64,000 nucleotides of DNA from Naegleria gruberi (GCA_000004985.1 GG738884.1); one strand, 5' to 3'; counted from the stretch's first letter, positions 3,260 through 64,000 are shown. Numbers and translations are program-made. Notes: generated by a model not told the origin, from the sequence alone.

Positions 3260-5299
3260 TTAGATAAATCTACTCTCCACAAGTTTGGAAACTTTGTTGT
3301 AAACTCGCTCAATATCAATCTCAACTTGACCCAATGAATCTGACTCTGTAAAATGGCTTGCCTTTACATCTTCTTGTGTCAAACTTAAAACTTGCATGTG
3401 AGATAGTGAATGATGGAAGGCAAGAGAGCTACTTGAAGGTTCGTGGCATGATTGTTTGTTTTCGCTTGGTTGTTTGGATGCACCTACCTTATTGACACCA
3501 TCTGCAGCTGCTTGCTTTTGACGAGGACAAAAAGGAGTAATGATGAGATGAGAATTTTCTGGCATAAACAAAGACCAATAGGATGCACTTCCAGAATTTG
3601 TAATAAAAACATCAACCGATGAGAAGAATCTCACCATTTGAATTAATGAATTTTCCTCATTCTTTCCATAGAGTCCTGATGAAGTTGCTGATGAAACATC
3701 GAGTGGAATTATTTGAACAGAATAACCCAAGTCAATCATGAATTTTTCCTGTGCAAGATTTTCCAATTTCTTTTCCAATTCTTTAGAGTTGAAAATATTG
3801 TTGCTTTCGTGTGTTGTTAATTTTCCTAAAACTACAATCTTGATAGTCTTTTTAGGTTTTCCTCCTCCAAGTAAACCCAAATTTGAAATAATTCTCTTTC
3901 TCAAAAGTTGAATGGAAATATCTCTATATTTTCCATAATTTTTACCAAATGAAATAGATCGTTCTCCAACTCCAAATACGAGCTTTTTGAAACATATATC
4001 AACTTGATTTCTATCGAGAATGGCTTTTTCCTCAGAAAATATCATTGAAGTTGGTCTCTTGGATTCTGGATCATCCATTGGACAAGGTGCTTTTTCAATT
4101 CTATAAATGAGTTGACTGGAAGGTTGTTCAGAGATTTTCATTTCTCTCTTTTCAATCTTGTACGAGCATTTCTGTAAAATAGGTTGTGTAGAGAATATCT
4201 GAGTCCACTGCAAAGATTGTTGAATGGCTTCCTTCTTTTTTCCGTGATAGGTAGACATTTCCTCCGCACAGAATAAATGTTTTCCAGTTTTGACATTCAC
4301 TTGATGTTGTAAATGGACTTGTCTCGAAGGACTAGTTTCACACGAACTATCCTCTTTAACTCCTCTCTCATAAATTATTTCATCCATGAATAAAATAGCA
4401 AGATCCTTAACATCCAAATCAAATTTGTAAATAAGCTCATTGAGTGCAATCAAATTATCATTGAAAAAGTGAGCTAAACTTCCTGCTGCATATCTATTCA
4501 TGGCAATTGTTGGATTTTGAATGAAATTAAAGTCCTTATTAGTCTTTTTGAACATGAAATTCAAACTGACTGATCCTCTCTTTCCACTTCTCCATGTTTG
4601 CAAGAAGGAAATTACCTTTTCATTATGTGTAATTCCAAATAATTGTTTGTAAACCGAATCATATAATTCCTGAGTTGTGTAAAAGATCAAATCTCCCTTC
4701 TTATTCATGCAAACATTTTCCATTACAAATGATGCTTGTGAAAAATCAATCGATTGTCCATTGCCATGATGCGCCGAATTGTGAAATCTCAATTTACTAT
4801 ACAATTCCTCATTCTGTTGTTTGTGTGAAATCTTATCATTCATAGGATCAATAAGTCCACCCACTCCCGATGTGGATGCATACTGATTCACCACTAAATG
4901 TCTAATCCTATTCGTTATTTGTGTATAGTCTGCTCTTTCAAAATTATTTAATGCTGATGAGGGTCCATCTGGCACTACAAGTATATTTTCCTTTCCGACA
5001 ATTTCACTCTTCGACTTGTTCATCCGAATGGAAACATATCCACAACCCATTAACACTACAAGTACTAGAAAGACAAATAGTAATCGTGCCTTGAGTGAAA
5101 ACTTTCCAAAGCCAGAATCAATCTTGTATGGGTCCTTCCTCCGAGTATTATTTAAATTATTGTAATTTATTGCATTGTGATGATGATGCTCTGATGTCTC
5201 GTCATCCGAAGGTGAACCAAATATTTCATCCAAGTCATCAAGTACTCGTTCTCTTTCTTCGTTAATTTTCACATCAACTGTTGTTGTTCGTTTAGACAT
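3260..5299 (-). CDS. Putative type II membrane glycosyltransferase resembling GT61/DUF563.
   Basis: The ORF 3260..5443 starts at a TTG; the first ATG is at 5299 (MSKRTTTV). A single TM helix, LLFVFLVLVVLMGCGYV, sits near the N-terminus. The C-terminal stretch ...DVFITNSGSASYWSLFMPENSHLIITPF resembles the GT61/DUF563 signature (hGAGLTNxxFmxxgsxvIEi). The family call is from memory. Confidence 0.4.
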   Translation of the reverse strand: MSKRTTTVDVKINEERERVLDDLDEIFGSPSDDETSEHHHHNAINYNNLNNTRRKDPYKIDSGFGKFSLKARLLFVFLVLVVLMGCGYVSIRMNKSKSEIVGKENILVVPDGPSSALNNFERADYTQITNRIRHLVVNQYASTSGVGGLIDPMNDKISHKQQNEELYSKLRFHNSAHHGNGQSIDFSQASFVMENVCMNKKGDLIFYTTQELYDSVYKQLFGITHNEKVISFLQTWRSGKRGSVSLNFMFKKTNKDFNFIQNPTIAMNRYAAGSLAHFFNDNLIALNELIYKFDLDVKDLAILFMDEIIYERGVKEDSSCETSPSRQVHLQHQVNVKTGKHLFCAEEMSTYHGKKKEAIQQSLQWTQIFSTQPILQKCSYKIEKREMKISEQPSSQLIYRIEKAPCPMDDPESKRPTSMIFSEEKAILDRNQVDICFKKLVFGVGERSISFGKNYGKYRDISIQLLRKRIISNLGLLGGGKPKKTIKIVVLGKLTTHESNNIFNSKELEKKLENLAQEKFMIDLGYSVQIIPLDVSSATSSGLYGKNEENSLIQMVRFFSSVDVFITNSGSASYWSLFMPENSHLIITPFCPRQKQAAADGVNKVGASKQPSENKQSCHEPSSSSLAFHHSLSHMQVLSLTQEDVKASHFTESDSLGQVEIDIERVYNKVSKLVESRFI

Positions 5300-5399
5300 T
5301 TTTTTGATGATTGATTTGTGAAAATTGATGGAGTTGTTCAACTCTTCTAGATTGTGATAATCAGGTTGAGTGTATTGTGATAATTGAATAATGGATGAC

Positions 5400-6932
5400 T
5401 TATTCAATGCTGAAATTAGAACTGTTACCCTGTCTGTGTTCAATCAAATCAATTGAAGAACGAACATCTGTACAATATTCGAAAAGAACACCAACCAGAG
5501 CTTCATCCTTGTTGGTTTTGATTTCAGCCAAAAGTTGACCTTCTTTTCTGTCTTCAAGAGTGACATGAGTAGTTGGGTGATTCTCATTCAAAGATCCATG
5601 CCACACTTGTCCAATCTTATCGTGTGTAATACAGTGGAGTGTATATCCAAGTTTGAGAGGCAATGTCTCAACAATAACAACCCTACTCGAGGTAATCATG
5701 TAGTGAATGCCCTGATAGACTGGAATGAGTTTAACCAAACTGGTGTGAGTAAGGAAAAAGACAATAATGATAGAAATTTCCCACAAGAATAATGAAATAA
5801 TAATACTCTCCAACAAGACAAGTGAAAGAATGGCCATAATGAACATGATGAAGAATGTTGGAATGACCAAAATCCAAAATATCATCAACATTCTCAATGT
5901 ACTCTTTCTAGAACGTTTCATATTGTCTGTTGAAGGTCTTTCATAGTAGAGGAGTGTTTCATGTTCTTCAGTGGCAGTACTTCTCATGAGTAAATAAACT
6001 GGATGTACCTTATTACCATCATCATTGGTATCGAGTGAGGCAAGAGCAATTTCTTGAAGTTGTGAAGTTGGCTCCTCATCTTGTTGATTGTTTTCCGATA
6101 ATAACAATGCTCTCTTATCAAGTCTTAAAAGAACTTCCTTGTGTCTTTCTGTTGGATCTTGCAAAATAACATTCATTGAAGAGCTCTCCTCCAATCTGTA
6201 TGTTGTTGAATCTCCGCTCAACACGAACGGATCCTTAATAACTTGTCTAACAAATCTATCAAGTGAAAACTTGCTTCTTCCCTCAAAGTAGAAAAATCCA
6301 AACAGAATATAACCAACAATAATAATTAGAACAATAATTAATGCAAGTGGAATGGCCCAATACAACTCTGCAATGTACTGTCTGGTCATATCCATTCGGA
6401 GAGAAATATTAATACTATTTCCTCCAATATTATTAATCTTTTTAGTGGCAAATCTCTCAACATTTGCTTGAATAGCATAGCAAGTGAATGAATCGTCATG
6501 ATCACTTCCAATATATTCCTCCAGACACTTCTTACTCTCTGCAGATGAAGAAGTCTTACAAAAATCATCCCATAGCACTGATGATAAAACAACCAAGTCT
6601 TGTCCATTAGTACTAGCATCATCATGATACAGGGTAACATTGAGAATATAATAATAATAGGTAGAAGAGGAATCAGCACCCTTGTATTCAATCAATGATG
6701 GAGCACTCTCATCAATATATTTACAATCATATGATTTGTAGTGTAGTATCGAAGAGGTATCAACAGATAAACACATGGCAATAAATAACGCATTCACAGT
6801 TATCAAACATAACAGTAATAAACTCCATAGCCATCGTGGTACTTTAAGAAAAGTCTTTGAAGTCATGTTCCCATAGAGGAGGGAATTATCGGATGATCCC
6901 GAACATTTCAATAGGTTCATAACTTTATCCAT
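5400..6932 (-). CDS. Hypothetical multi-pass membrane protein.
   Basis: A 510-aa ORF with an ATG at 6932. There are several hydrophobic helices: one near the N-terminus, one mid-protein (AIPLALIIVLIIIVGYILFGFFYF) and a C-terminal cluster. I recognise no family. Its 3' end overlaps the alt-start extension of the downstream ORF by 44 nt. Confidence 0.35.
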   Translation of the reverse strand: MDKVMNLLKCSGSSDNSLLYGNMTSKTFLKVPRWLWSLLLLCLITVNALFIAMCLSVDTSSILHYKSYDCKYIDESAPSLIEYKGADSSSTYYYYILNVTLYHDDASTNGQDLVVLSSVLWDDFCKTSSSAESKKCLEEYIGSDHDDSFTCYAIQANVERFATKKINNIGGNSINISLRMDMTRQYIAELYWAIPLALIIVLIIIVGYILFGFFYFEGRSKFSLDRFVRQVIKDPFVLSGDSTTYRLEESSSMNVILQDPTERHKEVLLRLDKRALLLSENNQQDEEPTSQLQEIALASLDTNDDGNKVHPVYLLMRSTATEEHETLLYYERPSTDNMKRSRKSTLRMLMIFWILVIPTFFIMFIMAILSLVLLESIIISLFLWEISIIIVFFLTHTSLVKLIPVYQGIHYMITSSRVVIVETLPLKLGYTLHCITHDKIGQVWHGSLNENHPTTHVTLEDRKEGQLLAEIKTNKDEALVGVLFEYCTDVRSSIDLIEHRQGNSSNFSIE

Positions 6933-12472: not shown

Positions 12473-12522
12473 NNNNNNNNNNNNNNNNNNNNNNNNNNNN
12501 NNNNNNNNNNNNNNNNNNNNNN
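12473..12522. other. Assembly gap of 50 N that lies inside a gene.
   Basis: A run of N in the sequence. The coding exon of the PRXL2-RGS gene resumes immediately at 12523. Confidence 0.95.
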
Positions 12523-14122
12523 GTCACAAAAACACAACATTCTCCTCATCTTTCGTCGATTTGTAAGTTTCGGCGGGTGTGCCTTCTGCAATAGACGAAT
12601 GGTAGAGTTGATGGAATTTTACAGATCGCTCACACAGTTGAACATTGTACCAATTGTTGTTTATCCGGAAACTGAGGAAAGAGGAGAAGATTTTTTCAAT
12701 TCTGTAAGTTTACTACTGTTCAATGTTCAATAATATTAAATATTAAATACTATATTTACAATAATAATTAACTATTACTATTGAATATTTAACAACTTAC
12801 AAAAAAAATATTTAAAGTGGGAAATTCCCGAAATTTCATCACTCATTCGCGTTCCCGATCCAAACAATGAATTCGCCACTGTTTTTGATATTTACTCCGG
12901 CTCAGTTTCCAAAAAAGTAATCCTGACCTATCTCATTCCACAACTACTACTCACCAAAATGGATGGATTCTCACAGGAACGTAAGAAGAGGGATGAATAC
13001 CATGGGAAAAGTTTCTACATTCGACCTGCAATGTTTCTGATTAGGAGAGGGAAGGTCATCCATTCGTGGCGATTGAATTATGCCGATCATTGTCCTAAGG
13101 TTTTGGAAGAAATTGTTTTGAAATTGGATTTGAAAAGTGGTGGAGGTGATGATTTGGAAAGTTTGAAAATGAATGAGAAAAATGTTGTGAAAATTGAAAG
13201 TAAGAAAGTTATTGGAAAGGAAGAAGAGATGTTGAATGAAGTTTCTAATGAAAATGAAACAAGGAAGGAAGAATGTCAAAATGTAATAATGGAAATGGAA
13301 TTGAAAGAATGTGAATCTCAAATCAAGGAACAAATTCAAATGGAAGAAACTAAACTTGACGAATCTACCCTTCAAACCATTGAAATTTCCACACAAATCG
13401 ACATGCCAATCATTGACACTTCTAGAGAAATTCCAATCTACAAGAGAAAACAAGCAAGCTCATCATTGGAAATAATCACACCAACTGAAAAGAAGGAAAA
13501 TGAAAAAATTCAAACAATCAAAGCAAAGAAATCTCTCCAACCTAAATATTCCTGTTTTGGAAATCGAAATGTGGTAGGAGATTCGGATTTGAACATGTTG
13601 GTAGTTTTGGAAAATCCGAAACTTCGTAAATATTTCAAACTGTTTGCACATATGGAATTTAATATTGAGAATATTCTATTTTGGGAAGAAGTTAATACTC
13701 ACTACAAGCCAATTGCTTCATTTTCCAAATTTGACAAGACGAAATCAATTGCTACAAGTATTGGAAACCTTTTCCTATTCGATTCTCATTCAGTCATGCA
13801 CGTAAATACTTCGGATAAATTAAGGGAACAAGTAAGGGAACAAATTCAATTTCATTTCGAATCAAAATCCATTACTGAACTATTACCATCGAAATATAGA
13901 GTTAATAGATCATTAGAAGACACTGCTGTCGATCCACTTTCGAATACACCAGAAGAATCTGACAACATTTCACAACTTTCAATTGCTGATCGATTTAATG
14001 AAACAGTTACTGGAATATTTGATCCCATCATTAACGAAATGTTATCCTCTTCCATACAGGACATGTTTTTAAGATTCAGGACAAGTGATTTATTCTCCCA
14101 AATGATTTCTTCAGTAAAATAA
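12523..14122 (+). CDS. Fusion protein with an N-terminal PRXL2/FAM213-type thioredoxin-fold (AhpC/TSA-like, CxxC) domain and a C-terminal RGS domain. It is 5'-partial because of the gap. Exons are 12523..12703 and 12818..14122.
   Basis: The exon after the gap reads ...ILLIFRRFVSFGGCAFCNRRMVELMEFYRSLTQLNIVPIVVYPETEERGEDFFNS and ends at a GTAAGT donor (12704). The acceptor is ...tttaaag|TGG (12817/12818), in frame. Translation then continues ...MDGFSQERKKRDEYHGKSFYIRPAMFLIRRGKVIHSWRLNYADHCP, which matches the PRXL2A C-terminal half (NGGFSG...GGVFVVG..GKQGIL). It runs directly into the ORF-track ORF 12959..14122, whose C-terminus carries RGS motifs (YFKLFAHMEFNIENILFWEEVNTHYK ... SIQDMFLRFRTSDLFSQMI). 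A candidate first exon lies upstream of the gap, with an ATG at 12331 (MIQTNSFEMAILECLQYFSLVE, resembling PRXL2A ...AALEYLEDIDL); this is uncertain. Confidence 0.6.
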
Positions 14123-55937: not shown

Positions 55938-57509
55938 TTATTTACATTTTGGAAATTGATCCATTGCATTTTGAATTAAAACATTGATGGCTTGAACTTT
56001 CTTTGCTGATTTCTTCTTGGTAAGGTAAGAAGCTTTGATTTGTTTCAGATATTGGACACGATCTTCTAGAGCTCCCTTAAGTCTTTGTCTTTTGAGTTGA
56101 GCATGGGAGTGAACATTTCTATCTTCTACGATTCGTAAAGTGACTTCTTCAGAGATGGAGAATAAATTTCCCAATGTTTTGACTCGAGAATTTTCATCAT
56201 CGACCATTCTTTCTTCGAGAGCTAGGATCATTCGGACACAATCAGTGAAGGTCTTGTTCATACTGGCATAGAGAGAATCAATGAATATCTTGTGTCTTTC
56301 TAAACAGAGAATGCTCTCGTAGGATTCTAATCTTCCAAGACACATGACAATCTGCTTGCACAATTCAATTTCATCCATGTCGAGCAGTGTGAAGAAGGTG
56401 TTGGTAAAATCAATCTCTCTTGATAGCATTGCATCAGCAATTGAGTGAATCAATTCAGTATTCACTTCAGAGCTCAATGCCTTATCTTTCTTTGAAGTGT
56501 GAATCTTGACCACATTCTTCAATCCTTGATGATCCATAATCAGAGCAATATTGGAAATCAAACTTCTCAATAAATCCTCATCTTCACTAATGAAAGGAAT
56601 GACATGCTTGAAATTGATACGTTTCTCCTTCAAAACTTCAATCAGGGTTGCTTCATTCATTATCATTGGAGGCTCGCTAACTATAACTTGCACCAGTTCA
56701 GTTTCCATTACTTGATCACTCTCCTTCACTGCCTCAAATATTGTTGTCACTGAAGTATTATTCGGACTCAAAGGCTTGGCAATGACTGTCTTGACTACCA
56801 CTTGTGAAGGACTTGCCGATTGAACTTTCTGCTTTTTTCTTGCAGGTGAGAATGAATCCGAAACATTAGGCTTTCTAAAATTCACCACCACAGTTTTAAC
56901 ATTCTTATCAACAATAATCTTTGGAATCTCTTCAATTAATTGAATAAATTCTCCAACATTATAATAAAAGCTTCCAACAACGAGAGTTTGCTTCTCTCCA
57001 GGAACTGAAAATTCATACACTTTCTTTCCGAATACATGATACAATTCAATTCTTTCATCATTTTCCCAACAATGACTGTAAATAGGCTTACACCAATAAT
57101 CCAATTCATTTCTATTCACCCAACTACACTTAACATCATCGCCACGTTCAACATGAAACTCAATCATATTCTCTGATCGGTCCTTTCTGCAGGTTCCTCT
57201 GTACAAATAATGAAGATCGGATCGTTTTAAATAAACTCTTGCTCCCAAATTAATTTCATTAAAATCTCTCGTGTACATCATCTTGTAGATGGTCAGCAAT
57301 TGATTTCTTAATTTCATTGGAGGATCAATTCTAATAGGAGTTGACCACAATCTTCTACAAATTGAATCGCCAGAAGAAAGTGAATTCACCAAGTAGGTGG
57401 TATAGGTATTGTCGCAAAGAACATCCATGATGAATTGTTTTTCTTCAGTGAGGCTTCTTGCAAGAGAGAGGAATTGATTGTTAGGAAGAGTTTGATGTTG
57501 TTGAGACAT
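55938..57509 (-). CDS. Hypothetical protein of 523 aa.
   Basis: ATG at 57509. No family recognised. Confidence 0.35.
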   Translation of the reverse strand: MSQQHQTLPNNQFLSLARSLTEEKQFIMDVLCDNTYTTYLVNSLSSGDSICRRLWSTPIRIDPPMKLRNQLLTIYKMMYTRDFNEINLGARVYLKRSDLHYLYRGTCRKDRSENMIEFHVERGDDVKCSWVNRNELDYWCKPIYSHCWENDERIELYHVFGKKVYEFSVPGEKQTLVVGSFYYNVGEFIQLIEEIPKIIVDKNVKTVVVNFRKPNVSDSFSPARKKQKVQSASPSQVVVKTVIAKPLSPNNTSVTTIFEAVKESDQVMETELVQVIVSEPPMIMNEATLIEVLKEKRINFKHVIPFISEDEDLLRSLISNIALIMDHQGLKNVVKIHTSKKDKALSSEVNTELIHSIADAMLSREIDFTNTFFTLLDMDEIELCKQIVMCLGRLESYESILCLERHKIFIDSLYASMNKTFTDCVRMILALEERMVDDENSRVKTLGNLFSISEEVTLRIVEDRNVHSHAQLKRQRLKGALEDRVQYLKQIKASYLTKKKSAKKVQAINVLIQNAMDQFPKCK

Positions 57510-57888
57510 TTTTTTTTGAAATTATTTGGAGGCTTGTTCTTGTTTTTGCTCGCAGTTTTTATAGCTTTGAAAAACAAAATATTTTGTGGATATTTTTAAG
57601 GTTGTGCGAACACAATAAAATGAATTTTGTGAAGAAGCAATTAAAATTGTTTTTTTCAAAGTTGTTGTGGTGGAAATTAATGAAATGGTTGGGAAACGTG
57701 TGAGTGTTGTTTTTGGTAAGAACGTGCTTGGGAATTCATTTACAATACTAATATTTGAAAATGTCACGTTGCTTGAGAACAAGTGTTCACACGTTTACTT
57801 AACCACCTTCCAAGTTTATATTAAATCATATTTACAATACCATTGAAGGTAGTAAATTGGTCTGGGTTGGTTTCAAAACAATAAAAAA

Positions 57889-57965
57889 TTGATGAACGGA
57901 TTGTTACCAAGCTCGGAGTGATGGGTGTTACCGAAGTGACAATCAAAATTCCAACCAAATTAAGC
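57889..57965 (+). repeat. Degenerate duplicate, about 88% identical, of the first 75 nt of the coding sequence of the gene at 58930. It is a gene-fragment pseudocopy.
   Basis: attgatgaacggattgttaccaagctcggagtgatgggtgttaccgaagtgacaatcaaaattccaaccaaatt aligns with atgattgaacagattgttaagaagcacggagtgatgggtgttacagaagtgactatcaaaattccaaccaaatt at 58930..59003. Similarity ends there, and the fragment has an in-frame stop shortly after. Confidence 0.45.
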
Positions 57966-58929
57966 CATAAAAGGAATTGATATTAATCGAAAATCATCAA
58001 GAATGAACGTACTCTTTTCATCATGTTTCTTAATGTTGTCATGTTGCTTAGTTGCACAGTTTCCAACTCTGAAAAAGCAGGATAAAGTGGTGTTCAATTC
58101 GTTGAGTTTATTTCCTGGTCTGTTCAGTTACCTGTTGAGAGTTACCCTCATTCTCTAACTGTTTCTTCGATAATGATCTCTTGATTGATGTAATGTTAAT
58201 AGTATTAATTGGAAGATTTCACATCTCAAAATTGTAGCCGGAAAGATTTTTGTTCCAAATTCTTTACTGGAATTTCCAGACTTCTTTTTCAAGGTAGTAA
58301 AACTCCAGCTATTTTGATATGAGCTGATGAAATACCTTCTATCTCAATTAATTTGACAGATATTGAAATAATAAATTGTACAGAGAGAGAATATATTACT
58401 GGTAATCTATCTTCTTCTAATGAATGTTTCTCATCCCTTATTCATTGAATATAATAGTAAAGTATCACAAATATTAAAAGTAATATATCCAATAGTGAAA
58501 ATTACAGTAAAAGATAATTATCTGGTAGAGAATGGATGAATGACATGCTATTCGTGATGTTTCAGTGAGAAGTCAATATCCACATCATGATAAAAACAAT
58601 AAAAACATGAAAATATCAGATATCCATGATTTTCACAAATTATGCTACAGGGCGCAGGAGTTACCTTACTGTATTTGAAGAATTCTAGTGTATTTTCAGA
58701 GCTGTACAGACAGGCAGAAGAATGTGACGAATCTATCAATTACCAGAAATCGATGAAAAGTTTAGTTTGGAGTAACGCAGAATTTGGCCAAATGGTCATG
58801 AAAATGGTAGATTTAAATCCAAAAACAGGCCTTCAGCTCACTATTTAGAGAATTATTTCCCAATCCTAATTGATAATATGGAGTAGATAAATCTCAATCT
58901 TGGGATTTGTTACAAAAAACTTAAAAAAA

Positions 58930-59622
58930 ATGATTGAACAGATTGTTAAGAAGCACGGAGTGATGGGTGTTACAGAAGTGACTATCAAAATTCCAACCAA
59001 ATTTACATTTACTCCTTTTGAATATTGTACCTCTATCTATCGATTACTTTCTCGAATCGTGAATTTTCAGAATAATTTGATCAAGAATTTGATGAATAAT
59101 TCATTTCATGATATTGATATCATCACGGAAGGGAATAATTCAGCAAGTAATTCCTTCAAATTGCTACAAATTTATCCAACCAACAGGAATAGTAGGGAAT
59201 CTATTAATTTATTGACCTTTTATATATCTACGGAATGTTTGAAGAAATCTTTGGATGGGAAATATTCGGAAAGTCTTTGTTATTATTCTCCTCTTCAGAA
59301 ATTTAATATTGATTTTACAAATTATCAAAATCTTACTCGGGAGACTTTATTTAAAATTATAATGACATGTGAATCAATTAATGAAATATCTGAATGGGAT
59401 ATGGACAAGAAATTGGTAGATATCAGTTCAGAGCATCCAGAGACAATAATCAATTCAGTATTTCCTTTACTATTTGGATTTGAAAAGGGGAAGAGTGATT
59501 ATTTTACACCTATGGAAAGTGTGATTGATAATTGTATTCGTAATTTTCTTAAATCTGCTAGTAAGGGATTTTTTGAAAAGGTTAGGATTAAGAAGGTAGC
59601 AGAAGCAGCAATTAAATTGTAA
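58930..59622 (+). CDS. Hypothetical protein.
   Basis: The ORF 58900 starts at a TTG; the first ATG is at 58930 (MIEQIVKKHGVMGVTEVTIKIPTKF...). No family. Confidence 0.35.
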   Translation: MIEQIVKKHGVMGVTEVTIKIPTKFTFTPFEYCTSIYRLLSRIVNFQNNLIKNLMNNSFHDIDIITEGNNSASNSFKLLQIYPTNRNSRESINLLTFYISTECLKKSLDGKYSESLCYYSPLQKFNIDFTNYQNLTRETLFKIIMTCESINEISEWDMDKKLVDISSEHPETIINSVFPLLFGFEKGKSDYFTPMESVIDNCIRNFLKSASKGFFEKVRIKKVAEAAIKL

Positions 59623-59909
59623 TATAAAATTAAATAATATTAAATATTTAAAAATTACAAAAAATATTTTCAAAAAAATGTCATCAATCACACCAGCGGG
59701 AGGTGTTAAAAATCAACAACAACAACCCCAACTTAACCTTCTTCCATCTTCGCTCAACAATAGTATCATGATGGATTTGGATGATGATGAATTAACCAGT
59801 ACATCAACACTCAACACTTCAACTTCCTATCACAATAATCATCGAACAATTTCTCATCAATTCCTTGCCTCTTCTTCCTCTCTTCATAATCGATTCGGTT
59901 CCACATCAT

Positions 59910-59946
59910 CTAATAATAATAATAATTAATTAATAATAATAATAAT
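59910..59946. repeat. (TAA/AAT)n microsatellite: two (TAA)5 blocks separated by TAAT.
   Basis: taataataataataat taat taataataataataat. It sits exactly where reading frames switch between the 59678 ORF and the long downstream ORF. Confidence 0.7.
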
Positions 59947-60003
59947 GGAAAATATCAAGCAGCCGATTCCGATGATGAACATGAAGAAGATTTGCAGAGT
60001 TTC

Positions 60004-63000
60004 ATGTTGGAGAGTAGTACTGAACCGAATATGATCATCGGATCGGCACGAGTTGAAGCAGATGATGATGATCACCATCAAGAACCCTATAAACAATACT
60101 TGTCATCAATTTTAGATGAAATTTCGGATGAATCATCCAATGATGATGAAAGTGGTGTCGATGAACAAAATCAACAAAAGAGAAATGGAGCAGCAGCATT
60201 GGTGAACAAACAAGCAACAAGTAAGAAACGAAAAATTACTGTAAAAACAATATTGAGAGATGATGGACCAACACAAATGGTTACTACAGGTGCTAGTGGC
60301 CATAAACAACAAGAAGATAATGATGACAATTACTACTCGGATGAATTTATGGAAGAGGAGAATGAAGCAATTTTCATGTCAAATCCGTATGCTTCATTGA
60401 TGCCCTCCTCATCCAACAGCACACCAACAACAACATTGGAAAACAATGAAAAACAAAGGAAACCAAATTCGAATACTGCAAACACTGGTGGACAACAATC
60501 ACTCTACTTTTCACCGTCGAATATTTTGTTGGATATGAAATTAGAAGATTCTGAACGATTTGAAATTCTAAAGCAAGCCAGTGTTTTGGAACAGACTAAA
60601 TATCAATTGCAGAAATTGTTCATTCCCTATGATCCATCGAATAAGAGAGCTTCATTGAATAATCAACAACTTTCGAATAATCATCATGTAACTCATCATC
60701 ACCATCATCATGGAAGAAAACATCAAGATTTGGTAACAGTTCTCACAGTACCATCCGAAGAGGAATATGAAAAGAAAAAGATACTCCTGAGAACTCTTCG
60801 TGTTAAGCACACTGACAAGGTCATTGACTCAATTTTAAATTCACCACATTCTTCAGCAGTTTCTTCTTCTTCTTCTGATAATGAGGAAGAGGACTACAGA
60901 GGTAATGAAATTGCAAATATTGTAAAACATGCCAGAAACAACAAGTTTGACTCTGATGATGACAATTTATCCACTTCAACAACTTCTGAAATGGGATCGG
61001 ACTATATTCACAATCTCATCAATAATGGTGATATAGAAGATGATGATTCATTGGCATCAGATGATTATGATCCAGAGGCACTTCAACAAGGATCAATCAG
61101 TCGTCAAAATTCCTCACAACAATTAGTCAAAAATACTGAGGAAGCTAGAGCTCTGATAACAGCCATGAGAAAGAAGAATATCAAGGATTTGAAGGAATTC
61201 AATTCTATTGATAATTGGAAAGATTATTATGGAGGGGTAGTGGCTCACAACCTGTCCATGATTAAGCTCGACATGATCAAATCAATTAATGAATATTTGG
61301 AGTTGCATCGTCAAGAAATTGGTATTTGTAAAGTAATCAAAGTTTCCTCTACCATTTTGGCTATTGGTACATCTAATGGAACAACAGTTATATTTTCCAA
61401 TAGCAGCAGTAAGGTAGCTCACTTGAAATTGACCAAACAAGGAAAGGGAACACCAACAAAGAATCCACAACCAATTGTAAATCAATATAACAGTGTAACT
61501 TGTATGGATATTACATCGACAGGAAATTACGTTGTTTGTGGCTATGAATACGGTGATATAGCCTTTTGGAGTATTCAAAATGGTGGTGAGTTAATCAAGA
61601 GAATTAATGGTAAAGGAGAGGAAAATGTAAATAGTAATAGTTCAGAGTTCATGACACCAGTAGATAATATTCAATTTGTAAAAAATAATCCTTTCAAGGT
61701 ACTTGTTTCTAGTCAAGGAGCTGTCAAGTTGATAACACTCAAGGAAAAGTTAATCAAATTGGGAGGAAATTCATACGTGTATGATAGTTTACGAGTCACT
61801 GATGACAATTTTGATAGAGTAGTCGATGTGAAAATTCTTGCAGAAGGAGAAGCTTATCACGCTAGTAATGATTACCTTGTTGTTGCTATGGCAACAAGTA
61901 TGGGAGTTTTTGTAATGGCTCTTGAACCATTCGTAAAGATTCTTTGCTTTTTATCTAAACCTGAGGAAGTTTCTCCAACCACACTTCCCTATCTGTCTTG
62001 GAGAAAAGTTTTGGCTCCAATTCAGCTGGCAACCTCCCACGAAACTACACTCAACCAAATTTTAAGACTCAATAAGACTAAACCACCTCTGTTAGCTATT
62101 GCTTGGGGTAATATTTTGAATATTTTCCAATTGGAGGTGGAACCTCAACCAAAAGGATCAGTTCCAAACGACAGTGTAAATAGTGAAATGTTCAGAGTTT
62201 CATGTATGGAATTTAAGAATGATTTGATTGGAGCATTATGGTGTGGAGAGCAAGTCATGCTTTTATTGGACAGAGAGCATCAACTGCTTGTTGTTGATCC
62301 ATTCGCAACAAAGAATGTCGAAGAGAGAAAGATTACATTCGAAATACCAACAAAAGCTACACAGGAGAAGGTAATTTCAACTCACCACCTAACCTATCAC
62401 TCCAGATTCGATGTAAAGAGTAATGATGGAAAATTTACTCTCCATCCTGTTCCATCTTTTCATTCTACTCTTTGTACTAGAGCTTCATCTGTTGATGGAG
62501 TTGCCTATTTATTGTGTGATAACGATATGAATATTAATAATCAAGTTGTTATCACTGTAAAAGTGTTGAGTTGGAAGGAAAGAATTGATCAGCTATTGGA
62601 TATGGGATCTTGGAATCATGCACTCAAGATGGCTCTCAATTTCTATCAAGGAAGAGGTATTGCTGTTATTGGTCTGCCAACCGATTCCAGTCTCAGAAAA
62701 CAATTGGCTGGTGATGTTATTGGAGATATTTTACAGGGCTATGTAGATTATTATACTTCTCAAGTTAACACTCCAGGAGATCAAGATGAAATGTCTGATA
62801 ATGGAATTGATGAGTATTATACAGAACTTGCCAAGACATGTATTAGGTATTCGATAGAGATTGAAAAATCTGACAAGATTTTCACAACCTTCTATGAAAT
62901 ATTTAAAGGGAAAAACAAGGAACGACTTTTCATTTCAATTATTCAAGAGTATATCATCAAAGGTTTATTAATATCGAGCGAGTCTGAAATTGTTATTGTT

Positions 63001-64000
63001 CCCAATAATTTCGTGGATAAGATTATTCAACAACATTTGGAAATTTATCAAGCTTCTAACATGCCAGCTCTCGAGAATTTCCTTCTTTGCTTGGAATATA
63101 ATGATCATTTGAGTACGGATGAGTATGCCAATGTAGAATTTTGCAAACAATTAATTGAAAAGTGTATTAGACTGAGAATGTTCAAAGCCATGGTTATTAT
63201 TTACAATAAGGGATTGGACGACTATGTTACTCCGCTTAAAGAATTATTGACCATTGTTTTTGATCCAAATAATAATTCGCAAGGAGACAGGCCTGCATGT
63301 ATTGAGTTGGTTTTCGAATATTTGGAAAAGCTATTCATTCAAGGAACTTCCATTACGAATAATCGTATTTCTGCTGGACTTCTCTATGACATCAAACTCC
63401 AAGTTTTGAATACCATCTTTAAAGCCAATGAGAATATTAGAGACCAATTCTCTAGCTCTGCAATGCCATTCAAGTCATCAGCGCTCTCTAAGAACTTTTC
63501 CTACAAGAAGTATTACATGCTCTCTCGGCTGCTCATCTTATCTGCCAAGAGATTCTTTGCTTGGTTAGAAAAGGTCAACAATGATAGTTCTTCATCTAGT
63601 TTATGGTACTCTACTGAGGAAAAGGAGGTTTTAGCTCATCCACTATTCAAGCCAATCACCAAACAAGAGTTAACGAATTGTTTGATTTATATTTTCAGCT
63701 ACTTGTCTGGAATTGAAAATCCTTTCTCTCCGTGGGAAATGAAAACAAAGAAATTTACCATAGAGGAGGAACAATCACCACAAGCACATTGGGCTCCAAA
63801 TCTAGAAGATACTGTCTACTTTTCATTATTCTTAGCTGAACAATTGTCCAAGTCTGGAAAACAAGCTATTGATAAGAATTCAATCTTTGTCTCTGTGGAT
63901 ACTCTTCATAGAATTTTTTCCACGTTATGTTATGAAGGAAACTTGTTTGATGATGATATTGCCACCACACAATTGGAACTGGTTGAAATTTTAACCAATG
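60004..64000 (+). CDS. Partial CDS whose 3' end runs off the window. It encodes a large protein with an acidic S/N-rich N-terminus and a VPS8-like (CORVET/HOPS-type beta-propeller plus alpha-solenoid) body.
   Basis: The frame is open from 59926 to the window end, more than 1,350 codons, and I checked it by hand. It is absent from the ORF track. The first in-frame ATG is at 60004. Motifs include ...KVIKVSSTILAIGTSNGTTVIF... (compare the Vps8 or Vps41 ALGTSHG..) and ...LDMGSWNHALKMALNFYQGRG... (Vps8-domain like). The family call is from memory and is moderate. The gene may instead start at the ATG at 59678, which would require a 1-nt indel in the microsatellite. Confidence 0.5.
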   Translation, partial: MLESSTEPNMIIGSARVEADDDDHHQEPYKQYLSSILDEISDESSNDDESGVDEQNQQKRNGAAALVNKQATSKKRKITVKTILRDDGPTQMVTTGASGHKQQEDNDDNYYSDEFMEEENEAIFMSNPYASLMPSSSNSTPTTTLENNEKQRKPNSNTANTGGQQSLYFSPSNILLDMKLEDSERFEILKQASVLEQTKYQLQKLFIPYDPSNKRASLNNQQLSNNHHVTHHHHHHGRKHQDLVTVLTVPSEEEYEKKKILLRTLRVKHTDKVIDSILNSPHSSAVSSSSSDNEEEDYRGNEIANIVKHARNNKFDSDDDNLSTSTTSEMGSDYIHNLINNGDIEDDDSLASDDYDPEALQQGSISRQNSSQQLVKNTEEARALITAMRKKNIKDLKEFNSIDNWKDYYGGVVAHNLSMIKLDMIKSINEYLELHRQEIGICKVIKVSSTILAIGTSNGTTVIFSNSSSKVAHLKLTKQGKGTPTKNPQPIVNQYNSVTCMDITSTGNYVVCGYEYGDIAFWSIQNGGELIKRINGKGEENVNSNSSEFMTPVDNIQFVKNNPFKVLVSSQGAVKLITLKEKLIKLGGNSYVYDSLRVTDDNFDRVVDVKILAEGEAYHASNDYLVVAMATSMGVFVMALEPFVKILCFLSKPEEVSPTTLPYLSWRKVLAPIQLATSHETTLNQILRLNKTKPPLLAIAWGNILNIFQLEVEPQPKGSVPNDSVNSEMFRVSCMEFKNDLIGALWCGEQVMLLLDREHQLLVVDPFATKNVEERKITFEIPTKATQEKVISTHHLTYHSRFDVKSNDGKFTLHPVPSFHSTLCTRASSVDGVAYLLCDNDMNINNQVVITVKVLSWKERIDQLLDMGSWNHALKMALNFYQGRGIAVIGLPTDSSLRKQLAGDVIGDILQGYVDYYTSQVNTPGDQDEMSDNGIDEYYTELAKTCIRYSIEIEKSDKIFTTFYEIFKGKNKERLFISIIQEYIIKGLLISSESEIVIVPNNFVDKIIQQHLEIYQASNMPALENFLLCLEYNDHLSTDEYANVEFCKQLIEKCIRLRMFKAMVIIYNKGLDDYVTPLKELLTIVFDPNNNSQGDRPACIELVFEYLEKLFIQGTSITNNRISAGLLYDIKLQVLNTIFKANENIRDQFSSSAMPFKSSALSKNFSYKKYYMLSRLLILSAKRFFAWLEKVNNDSSSSSLWYSTEEKEVLAHPLFKPITKQELTNCLIYIFSYLSGIENPFSPWEMKTKKFTIEEEQSPQAHWAPNLEDTVYFSLFLAEQLSKSGKQAIDKNSIFVSVDTLHRIFSTLCYEGNLFDDDIATTQLELVEILTN

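What the first reader, a model, noticed from the sequence alone, without database searches (positions are those of the whole stretch)
59678..64000. Unlisted ORF of more than 4 kb, VPS8-like, running off the right edge, with a frame switch at an (AAT)n microsatellite
The ORF track has no + strand ORF after 59929, yet the + strand is open in one frame from 59926 to position 64000. The product has an acidic S/N/D-rich N-terminus and then motifs reminiscent of the CORVET subunit Vps8 (ILAIGTSNGTTVIF, WNHALKMALNFYQGRG). The upstream 83-aa ORF (59678..59929) is also S/N-rich and ends in a different frame inside (TAA)5TAAT(TAA)5. A 1-nt microsatellite length error would fuse the two.
Basis: partly seen in the sequence, partly recalled or inferred. 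Interest (0 to 1): 0.5.

Follow-up and report, generated by a model that had tools for sequence, protein, structure and literature searches.

The report
Naegleria gruberi VPS8 gene, 5' end uncertain
The long open frame is the first two-thirds of the already annotated Vps8 gene (an endosome-tethering CORVET subunit) of the amoeba Naegleria gruberi, so it is ordinary; the only open point is where the gene really starts, because a small coding-like ORF upstream is cut off from it by a frame break inside an interrupted AAT repeat.

Summary
The + strand is open for 1358 codons from 59926 to the window edge. It was "unlisted" only because the ORF lister omits ORFs that run off the sequence.

The Vps8 call also holds:
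- It matches the Pfam Vps8 beta-propeller (2.4e-32) and Vps8 central TPR (PF12816, 3e-11).
- A profile search of PDB finds Vps8 of the solved CORVET complex (8qx8_F, 2e-31) and no paralogue.
- The DNA is Naegleria gruberi. The product is 100% identical to the public protein NAEGRDRAFT_58764 (2230 aa), which has a RING-H2 motif at its C-terminus beyond the window.

The frame break is real. The repeat is (AAT)5-T-AAT-T-(AAT)5. Inserting 1 nt or removing the two T's fuses the 83-codon ORF to the main frame, whereas whole-unit slippage would not.

The 83-codon ORF has typical coding codon usage and follows a 55-nt spacer of 4% GC. However, the Willaertia magna orthologue starts at the position that corresponds to ATG 60004. 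The public model instead splices an orphan upstream ORF onto Vps8 through a 402-nt predicted intron, which is probably a chimera.

No transcript or second-assembly evidence could be obtained. This is a known gene and a gene-model question, so interest is low.

The parts
59926..64000 (+). Open reading frame of 1358 codons without a stop, running off the right edge of the window. It is 100% identical to residues ~199-1545 of the public N. gruberi protein NAEGRDRAFT_58764.
60004..64000 (+). Vps8 coding sequence counted from the first in-frame ATG. The conserved LDEIS motif lies 37 residues from this Met, against 34 residues from the annotated Met of the Willaertia magna orthologue.
60004..61299 (+). 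Lineage-specific N-terminal region of ~430 aa, low in complexity and rich in S/D/N/E, ahead of the propeller. It contains motifs shared with Willaertia, such as ERFEILKQ at 60553..60576.
61300..62325 (+). Vps8-type beta-propeller (PF23410 2.4e-32; PF23306 6e-12). By analogy, this is the Rab5/Vps21-binding module.
   Evidence: function from PMC3688683 (abstract shown)
62611..64000 (+). Start of the alpha-solenoid. The Vps8 central TPR domain PF12816 matches residues 1074-1216, which is 63145..63573. The profile also aligns to 8qx8_F Vps8 residues 407-1044.
59678..59929 (+). 83-codon ATG ORF, S/N/T-rich, with coding-like codon usage. It is a candidate original first coding segment of VPS8, or else a uORF or relic.
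59912..59946 (+). Interrupted trinucleotide repeat (AAT)5-T-AAT-T-(AAT)5. Each AAT run encodes Asn5 in its own frame. The 5-nt interruption carries the TAA stop of the 83-aa ORF and shifts the frame.
59623..59677 (+). 55-nt spacer with 4% GC, ending in caaaaaaaATG. It looks intergenic or promoter-like, but it would also fit inside an intron.
59561..59962 (+). 402-nt intron implied by the public gene model (GTAAGG...CAG). It removes the upstream ORF's last 20 codons and stop, the spacer, the 83-aa ORF and the repeat.
58930..59622 (+). Orphan upstream ORF (230 aa from ATG 58930; the public model starts at ATG 58963). It supplies residues 1-199 of the public Vps8 model. No homologue, no Pfam domain, no confident fold.

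Best explanation
Identity, shown here. The region holds the 5' two-thirds of the single-copy VPS8 gene of Naegleria gruberi, already in public databases as NAEGRDRAFT_58764.

Function, from established knowledge of the family and not tested here. Vps8 is one of the two CORVET-specific subunits. Its N-terminal beta-propeller recognises the Rab5-type GTPase on early endosomes. Its alpha-solenoid docks onto the shared class C core (Vps11/16/18/33). A C-terminal RING-H2 finger closes the protein. Together they tether endosomes before SNARE-driven fusion.

The ORF was 'unlisted' only because the ORF lister drops ORFs that run off the sequence.

The 5' end, inferred, with about 0.45 probability. The 83-codon ORF at 59678 is, or recently was, the first coding segment of VPS8. 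It would be continuous with the main frame through an (AAT)11 poly-Asn tract. In this assembly two extra T's (59927, 59931) break the frame. That is either a consensus error of a draft scaffold or a genuine lesion. If it is genuine, translation starts at ATG 60004, the position that matches the Willaertia start. The public model's N-terminal 199 residues are most likely a gene-prediction chimera.
For: Identity:
- No stop in 1358 codons.
- Above-threshold Pfam hits to the Vps8 propeller and Vps8 TPR.
- 100% identity to NAEGRDRAFT_58764 and 44% identity to the Willaertia magna orthologue, whose Pfam domain hits are likewise led by Vps8 families.
- The profile against PDB gives 8qx8_F Vps8 at 2.2e-31, with no Vps41/39/11/18/3 chain at E <= 0.01.
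- A RING-H2 consensus lies at residues 2131-2177 of the full protein. Its central Cys/His core (C2156, H2158, H2161, C2164) is invariant in the 4-sequence alignment.

5' end:
- The 83-aa ORF scores 0.312 bits/codon, against 0.36 +/- 0.14 for true coding windows. It beats 5000 of 5000 stop-free random sequences of the same composition and lies in the top 4.5% of 177 small open stretches. Its other two frames score negative.
- GC jumps from 0.04 in the spacer to 0.36 at the ATG.
- The start context caaaaaaaATG resembles the Willaertia VPS8 start aaaaaaaaaATG.
- The main frame stays open and coding-like (+0.6 bits/codon) for 26 codons upstream of its first Met, right into the repeat.
- Deleting the two T's gives an uninterrupted Asn11 fusion.
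- The window is a draft scaffold with an N gap.
- Against the public fusion: the Willaertia VPS8 has a clean start with a divergent ankyrin gene upstream, and nothing like the orphan ORF.
- The orphan ORF has no relative among 1.84 billion representatives.
- The public model also lacks about 135 conserved residues further downstream.
Against: - No transcript, read-level or second-assembly evidence could be found. Exact-product look-ups for the 83-aa ORF and the orphan ORF returned nothing. A metagenome pattern scan returned nothing. A homology search with the conceptually fused N-terminus returned nothing, but it also failed to return P0001, so it is a weak negative.
- The Willaertia orthologue has no counterpart of the 83-aa segment. 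Its Met aligns with ATG 60004 (LDEIS at residue 34 versus 37). This fits a start at 60004 without any repair.
- Two separate extra T's are not a typical single sequencing error.
- A 55-nt gap between two tandem genes is the shortest in this window. An annotated 61-nt gap does exist in the Willaertia locus.
- Rab5 binding and CORVET assembly are inferred from family membership only.
Confidence: 0.9

Rival explanations
1. VPS8 simply starts at ATG 60004. The 83-codon ORF is not part of the protein. It would be an upstream ORF in a long 5' leader, or a decaying relic of a former N-terminal extension. The sequence is correct as assembled.
For: The Willaertia orthologue starts 33 residues before the conserved LDEIS motif. 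ATG 60004 lies 36 residues before the same motif. No repair of the sequence is needed. Two extra T's are more easily real than a double sequencing error.
Against: The leader would be at least 326 nt and would carry an 83-codon ORF in good context, plus a further out-of-frame ATG at 59945 that overlaps 60004. That makes scanning initiation at 60004 inefficient unless transcription starts inside or after the repeat. The ORF's codon usage is that of coding sequence. The main frame is open and coding-like for 26 codons upstream of 60004.
Confidence: 0.3
2. The public model is right. The orphan ORF 58963..59560 is a genuine N-terminal exon of VPS8, and a 402-nt intron (59561..59962) removes the spacer, the 83-aa ORF and the repeat.
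For: The donor GTAAGG resembles the GTAAGT donor of the Willaertia VPS8 intron. The junction is in frame with no stop. The 55-nt distance between the orphan ORF's stop and the next ATG is very short for two separate genes.
Against: Willaertia VPS8 has no such domain, and a different, divergently oriented gene lies upstream of it. The orphan ORF has its own stop 20 codons past the proposed donor. It has no homologue anywhere, no Pfam hit and no confident fold (pLDDT 34). The proposed intron would contain an 83-codon stretch with coding-grade codon usage. The acceptor has no pyrimidine tract. The same model omits about 135 conserved residues elsewhere, so it is error-prone.
Confidence: 0.15
3. 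A variant of the fusion: one gene made of the orphan ORF, then a 136-nt intron (59561..59696), then the rest of the 83-aa ORF, then the main frame. The frame break at the repeat would still need repair.
For: The same GTAAGG donor joins in frame to the acceptor TCATCAATCACACCAG|cg, which is more pyrimidine-rich than the public acceptor. The intron would be 22% GC. This would explain both the short spacer and the coding-like ORF.
Against: In-frame compatibility has a one-in-three chance. It still needs the frameshift repair. Willaertia lacks both segments. An ATG in a strong A-rich context sits inside the proposed intron.
Confidence: 0.07
4. The frame break is bridged biologically. Either a short intron (for example 59898..59959, 62 nt) spans the repeat, or programmed ribosomal frameshifting or transcript slippage occurs on the AT tract.
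For: A 62-nt GT..AG interval exactly spans the repeat and restores the frame, giving ...HNRF|AADSDDE.
Against: None of the 48 frame-restoring GT/GC..AG intervals has a GTAAG or GTATG donor. The 62-nt one starts GTTCCA and ends without a pyrimidine tract. The only homologous intron seen is GTAAGT...TTTTTAG. The sequence AAT AAT TAA has no X XXY YYZ slippery heptamer for a -1 shift (read directly). No downstream structure was sought.
Confidence: 0.03

Closest known systems
Vps8 of the CORVET tethering complex (solved structure PDB 8qx8 chain F, deposited as 'Vacuolar protein sorting-associated protein 8'; Pfam PF23410, PF23306, PF12816)
   Same: Same order of domains: Vps8-type beta-propeller, Vps8 central TPR/alpha-solenoid, and C-terminal RING-H2 (the last in the full-length public protein). 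The profile aligns to residues 407-1044 of the solved Vps8 at E 2.2e-31.
   Different: About 430 residues of acidic, S/N/D-rich low-complexity sequence precede the propeller, and there are long low-complexity inserts near the C-terminus. The single-sequence search against PDB finds nothing; only the profile reaches Vps8.
Willaertia magna ABK040_016716 (2104 aa), the orthologue in the sister heterolobosean genus
   Same: 44% identity over 87% of the query, a closely similar set of Vps8-family Pfam hits, and shared pre-propeller motifs (LDEIS..., ERFEILKQ..TKYQLQKLFIP).
   Different: It has a clean ATG after an AT-rich spacer and a shorter N-terminal region. It has no counterpart of the 83-aa ORF or of the orphan upstream ORF. 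It has one 44-nt intron, at a site where N. gruberi is continuous.
Vps41 (the HOPS-specific paralogue)
   Same: Same overall propeller, solenoid and RING plan. The RING region gives sub-threshold hits to the Vps41 RING model (21 bits against a cut-off of 30.3), and the Willaertia orthologue hits TPR_Vps41.
   Different: No Vps41 propeller hit, no Vps41 chain in the PDB profile search, and the Vps8-specific models score far higher.

Membership tests
Vps8 (CORVET-specific subunit) | N-terminal Vps8-type beta-propeller | tested here: met
   PF23410 E 2.4e-32, 112.7 bits (cut-off 28.9), residues 459-800 of the window ORF. PF23306 45.6 bits (cut-off 27).
Vps8 (CORVET-specific subunit) | Central Vps8 TPR / alpha-solenoid | tested here: met
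   PF12816 E 3e-11, 43.7 bits (cut-off 27), residues 1074-1216. The profile aligns to 8qx8_F residues 407-1044.
Vps8 (CORVET-specific subunit) | C-terminal RING-H2 finger | tested here: met
   This lies outside the window, in the 100%-identical public protein. C-x2-C...C-x-H-x2-H-x2-C...C-x2-C lies at residues 2131-2177, and its central C2156, H2158, H2161 and C2164 are invariant across 4 homologues. The Pfam RING models are all below their cut-offs (best 21 bits). The profile hits RING E3 ligases RLIM and RNF38 at about 1e-3.
Vps8 (CORVET-specific subunit) | Closer to Vps8 than to the paralogues Vps41, Vps39, Vps3, Vps11 and Vps18 | tested here: met
   The only tethering-complex chain found in PDB at E <= 0.01 is Vps8. 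The top Pfam families are Vps8-specific. No phylogeny was made.
Vps8 (CORVET-specific subunit) | Binds the Rab5/Vps21 GTPase and assembles with the class C core Vps11/16/18/33 | not testable with these tools
   Inferred from family membership. The role of the N-terminal domain comes from PMC3688683 (abstract).
Vps41 (HOPS-specific subunit) | Vps41-type propeller and TPR_Vps41 as the best-scoring models | tested here: not met
   The window ORF has no Vps41 family among its hits. There is only a sub-threshold Vps41 RING hit, plus a TPR_Vps41 hit in the Willaertia orthologue that is weaker than its Vps8 hits.
Programmed -1 ribosomal frameshift site | Slippery heptamer X XXY YYZ in the upstream frame at the point of the shift | tested here: not met
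   The upstream frame reads AAT AAT AAT TAA TTA. No heptamer of that form is present. A downstream stimulatory structure was not examined.
Spliceosomal intron bridging the two frames | GT donor of the GTAAGT type, a pyrimidine-rich 3' end with AG, and a length that restores the frame | tested here: not met
   48 frame-restoring GT/GC..AG intervals were listed. None has a GTAAG or GTATG donor, and the shortest (62 nt) is GTTCCA...ATATCAAG. The reference intron in the Willaertia VPS8 is GTAAGT...TTTTTAG. No N. gruberi splice-site model could be built here.

The most novel reading that the evidence does not exclude
The frame break is genuine and is bridged by recoding, meaning ribosomal frameshifting or polymerase slippage on the 35-nt pure-A/T interrupted repeat. 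The cell would then make two Vps8 isoforms, with and without an ~110-residue N-terminal extension. A milder version is that the 83-codon ORF is a translated upstream ORF that throttles Vps8 (CORVET) levels.
Probability: 0.04. Interest if true: 0.45.

Novelty: already known. Interest (0 to 1): 0.1.

Why it matters
It matters little beyond annotation quality. Vps8 and CORVET are ancient pan-eukaryotic machinery, and this gene is already in the public N. gruberi protein set. The useful by-product is that the public model looks wrong in two places: a probably chimeric 199-residue N-terminus, and about 135 conserved residues missing just past the window. Comparative studies of HOPS/CORVET that use this sequence would inherit a false N-terminal 'domain' and a false deletion. 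Settling the true start needs only RNA-seq or read-level data.

Tried and rejected
- Dictyostelid origin was my first guess from the AT-rich, poly-N sequence. I rejected it after the exact match to Naegleria gruberi.
- A single-sequence PDB search found nothing. Only the 4-sequence profile reached Vps8.
- Contig look-ups by exact product for P0001, the 83-aa ORF and the orphan ORF found nothing on record.
- The N. fowleri orthologue was found only as a C-terminal fragment on a contig that starts mid-gene. It says nothing about the 5' end.
- The metagenome scan for the repeat flanks gave 0 hits.
- The homology search with the conceptually fused N-terminus gave no hits, not even P0001, so it is uninformative.
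- The exhaustive search with the orphan ORF found only itself. Its AlphaFold model was useless (pLDDT 34), so I ran no fold search.
- Two attempts to derive an N. gruberi intron consensus from ORF joins in the window were too noisy to use. GTAAGT occurs 13 times against 21.6 expected, which did not help.
- The genome paper (PMID 20211133) is not in the held library. No paper names NAEGRDRAFT_58764.
- Rfam and tRNA scans of 57000..64000 found nothing.
Full report
**1. The observation**

Translating 59926..64000 on the + strand gives 1358 codons without a stop. The ORF lister shows nothing there because it does not list ORFs that run off either end. After 59929 it shows only + strand ORFs of 40-53 aa.

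The 83-codon ATG ORF at 59678..59929 is real. It sits in a different frame from the long ORF (2 mod 3 versus 1 mod 3).

It is (AAT)5-T-AAT-T-(AAT)5 at 59912..59946, which equals (TAA)5-T-TAA-T-(TAA)5. TRF calls it a period-3 array of 11.3 copies with 5% indels.

**2. What the long ORF is**

Pfam gives three above-threshold, Vps8-specific hits:
- Beta-prop_VPS8 PF23410: E 2.4e-32, 112.7 bits against a cut-off of 28.9, residues 459-800.
- VPS8_N PF23306: 45.6 bits.
- TPR_Vps8 PF12816: E 3e-11, residues 1074-1216.

The homology search returned a 100% identical public protein, "hypothetical protein NAEGRDRAFT_58764 [Naegleria gruberi]". It is 2230 aa, and UniRef names it a RING-type domain-containing protein. 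The next hit was a 44% identical protein of Willaertia magna, 2104 aa. The window is therefore N. gruberi nuclear DNA (GC about 0.34), and the gene is already annotated.

A profile built from four homologues finds Vps8 of the solved CORVET complex in PDB (8qx8_F, E 2.2e-31). It finds no Vps41, Vps39, Vps3, Vps11 or Vps18 chain. A single-sequence search had found nothing.

The Pfam RING models stay below their cut-offs.

The window holds residues corresponding to about 199-1545 of the public model. No RNA family or tRNA lies in 57000..64000, and the minus strand shows only short antisense ORFs.

**3. How it most likely works**

This section rests on family knowledge, not on tests made here. Vps8 and Vps3 are the two CORVET-specific subunits. 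They interact with Rab5/Vps21 and need their N-terminal domains for localisation and function (PMC3688683, abstract). The other four subunits are shared with HOPS (PMC4935465, abstract).

By homology, the propeller at 61300..62325 is the Rab5-recognition module. The solenoid from about 62611 onwards is the arm that docks on the class C core.

About 430 residues rich in S, D, N and E precede the propeller. This region is lineage-specific and shares only a few motifs with Willaertia.

**4. The 5' end: three incompatible models**

(a) The public model. It starts at ATG 58963 in an upstream ORF and leaves it at 59560 through a GTAAGG donor. It re-enters at 59963 after a CAG acceptor. The implied intron is 402 nt and swallows that ORF's last 20 codons and stop, a 55-nt spacer, the 83-codon ORF and the repeat.

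(b) The 83-codon ORF is the first coding segment and is joined to the main frame at the repeat.

(c) Translation starts at the first in-frame ATG, 60004.

Evidence against (a):
- In Willaertia, VPS8 begins at a clean aaaaaaaaaATG about 160 nt from a divergently transcribed ankyrin-repeat gene. Nothing in 26 kb of that locus resembles the upstream ORF.
- The upstream ORF has no relative other than itself among 1.84 billion representative proteins, no Pfam hit and no confident predicted fold (pLDDT 34).
- The public model also lacks about 135 residues that are conserved in Willaertia, N. fowleri and a distant homologue. It is therefore demonstrably imperfect.

Evidence for (b):
- The 83-codon ORF scores 0.312 bits per codon on a codon model trained on the long ORFs of the window. 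True coding 83-codon windows score 0.36 +/- 0.14, and stop-free random sequences of the same composition score -0.12 +/- 0.10. None of 5000 such random sequences reached the observed value. The ORF is in the top 4.5% of the 177 small open stretches of the window. Its two other frames score negative.
- GC rises from 0.04 in the spacer to 0.36 exactly at the ATG.
- The main frame is open and coding-like for 26 codons upstream of its first Met, up to the repeat.
- Both AAT runs encode Asn5 in their own frames. Removing the two T's gives an in-frame Asn11 bridge.

Evidence for (c):
- The conserved LDEIS motif lies at residue 34 of the Willaertia protein and at residue 37 counted from ATG 60004.
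- Willaertia has no counterpart of the 83-residue segment.

On the nature of the break:
- A trinucleotide repeat that slips by whole units keeps the frame. Adding or removing one AAT leaves the stop in place. The break is the 5-nt interruption, meaning the two extra T's. A 1-nt insertion or a 2-nt deletion repairs it, but a 1-nt deletion does not.
- A splice cannot be ruled out formally. A 62-nt GT..AG interval (59898..59959) restores the frame. However, none of the 48 frame-restoring intervals has a GTAAG or GTATG donor. The only intron of the orthologous gene seen here is GTAAGT...TTTTTAG.
- There is no X XXY YYZ heptamer for a -1 ribosomal shift.
- The window is a draft scaffold with a 50-N gap at 12474..12523, so a consensus error is possible. 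Two separate extra bases make that less likely than a single slip would be.
- The same GTAAGG donor also joins in frame to an acceptor at 59696. That gives a 136-nt intron and one continuous product of the orphan ORF plus the 83-aa ORF. I treat this as a minor rival.
- The 55-nt spacer is shorter than any other tandem gap in the window. A 61-nt gap is annotated in the Willaertia locus.

My weighting is:
- (b) about 0.45: the 83-codon ORF is or was part of the gene, broken by an error or a recent lesion.
- (c) about 0.30.
- (a) about 0.15.
- The three-part gene about 0.07.
- Splicing or recoding across the repeat about 0.03.

None of these can be settled without transcript or read data. Every route to independent sequence failed.

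**5. Comparison with what is known, and novelty**

The protein meets every sequence-level defining feature of Vps8 that could be tested: the propeller type, the central TPR, the RING-H2, and being closest to Vps8 among the paralogues. Its biochemical features are untestable here. It is a member of a known family and is already in the databases, so the finding is "already known".

The remaining content is a gene-model correction. It is useful to people who use this sequence in comparative studies of HOPS and CORVET, but it would not surprise a specialist.

**6. Verdict**

The frame break is real, but its cause is unresolved. Interest is 0.1.

Noticed in passing
window 12474..12523: A run of 50 N, which is an assembly gap. 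The window comes from a draft scaffold, and this gap inflated codon scores of ORFs spanning it.
   Followed up: partly
window 57883..57961 and 58925..59003: A 79-nt direct repeat at 89% identity. The start context and first ~24 codons of the orphan upstream ORF are duplicated 1042 nt upstream, and the rest of that ORF is not. The stretch 57510..58925 between the neighbouring gene and the orphan ORF has no ORF of 100 aa or more.
   Followed up: partly
beyond the window, about 220-230 nt past 64000 (P0001 residues ~1618-1621): The public N. gruberi Vps8 model lacks about 135 residues that are conserved in Willaertia magna, N. fowleri and a distant homologue. In those proteins this is the region that matches Pfam TPR_Vps41 PF23556. 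It is probably a falsely predicted intron or an assembly gap.
   Followed up: partly
window 58930..59622: A 230-codon ORF with a good A-rich start context but no detectable homologue in 1.84 billion representative proteins. It also has no Pfam domain and an unfoldable AlphaFold prediction. It is either an N. gruberi orphan gene or a non-gene.
   Followed up: yes
window 59561..59696: The GTAAGG donor used by the public model can also be paired in frame with a more pyrimidine-rich acceptor (CACCAG at 59691-59696). That gives a 136-nt, 22% GC intron linking the orphan ORF to the 83-aa ORF.
   Followed up: partly
window 3260..6932, minus strand: Two long same-strand ORFs (3260..5443 and 5400..6932) overlap by 44 nt in different frames. 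This could be another intron or another frame break in this scaffold.
   Followed up: no
L001 12385..12428 (Willaertia magna): The Willaertia VPS8 has one 44-nt intron (GTAAGT...TTTTTAG) at a position where the N. gruberi gene is uninterrupted.
   Followed up: partly
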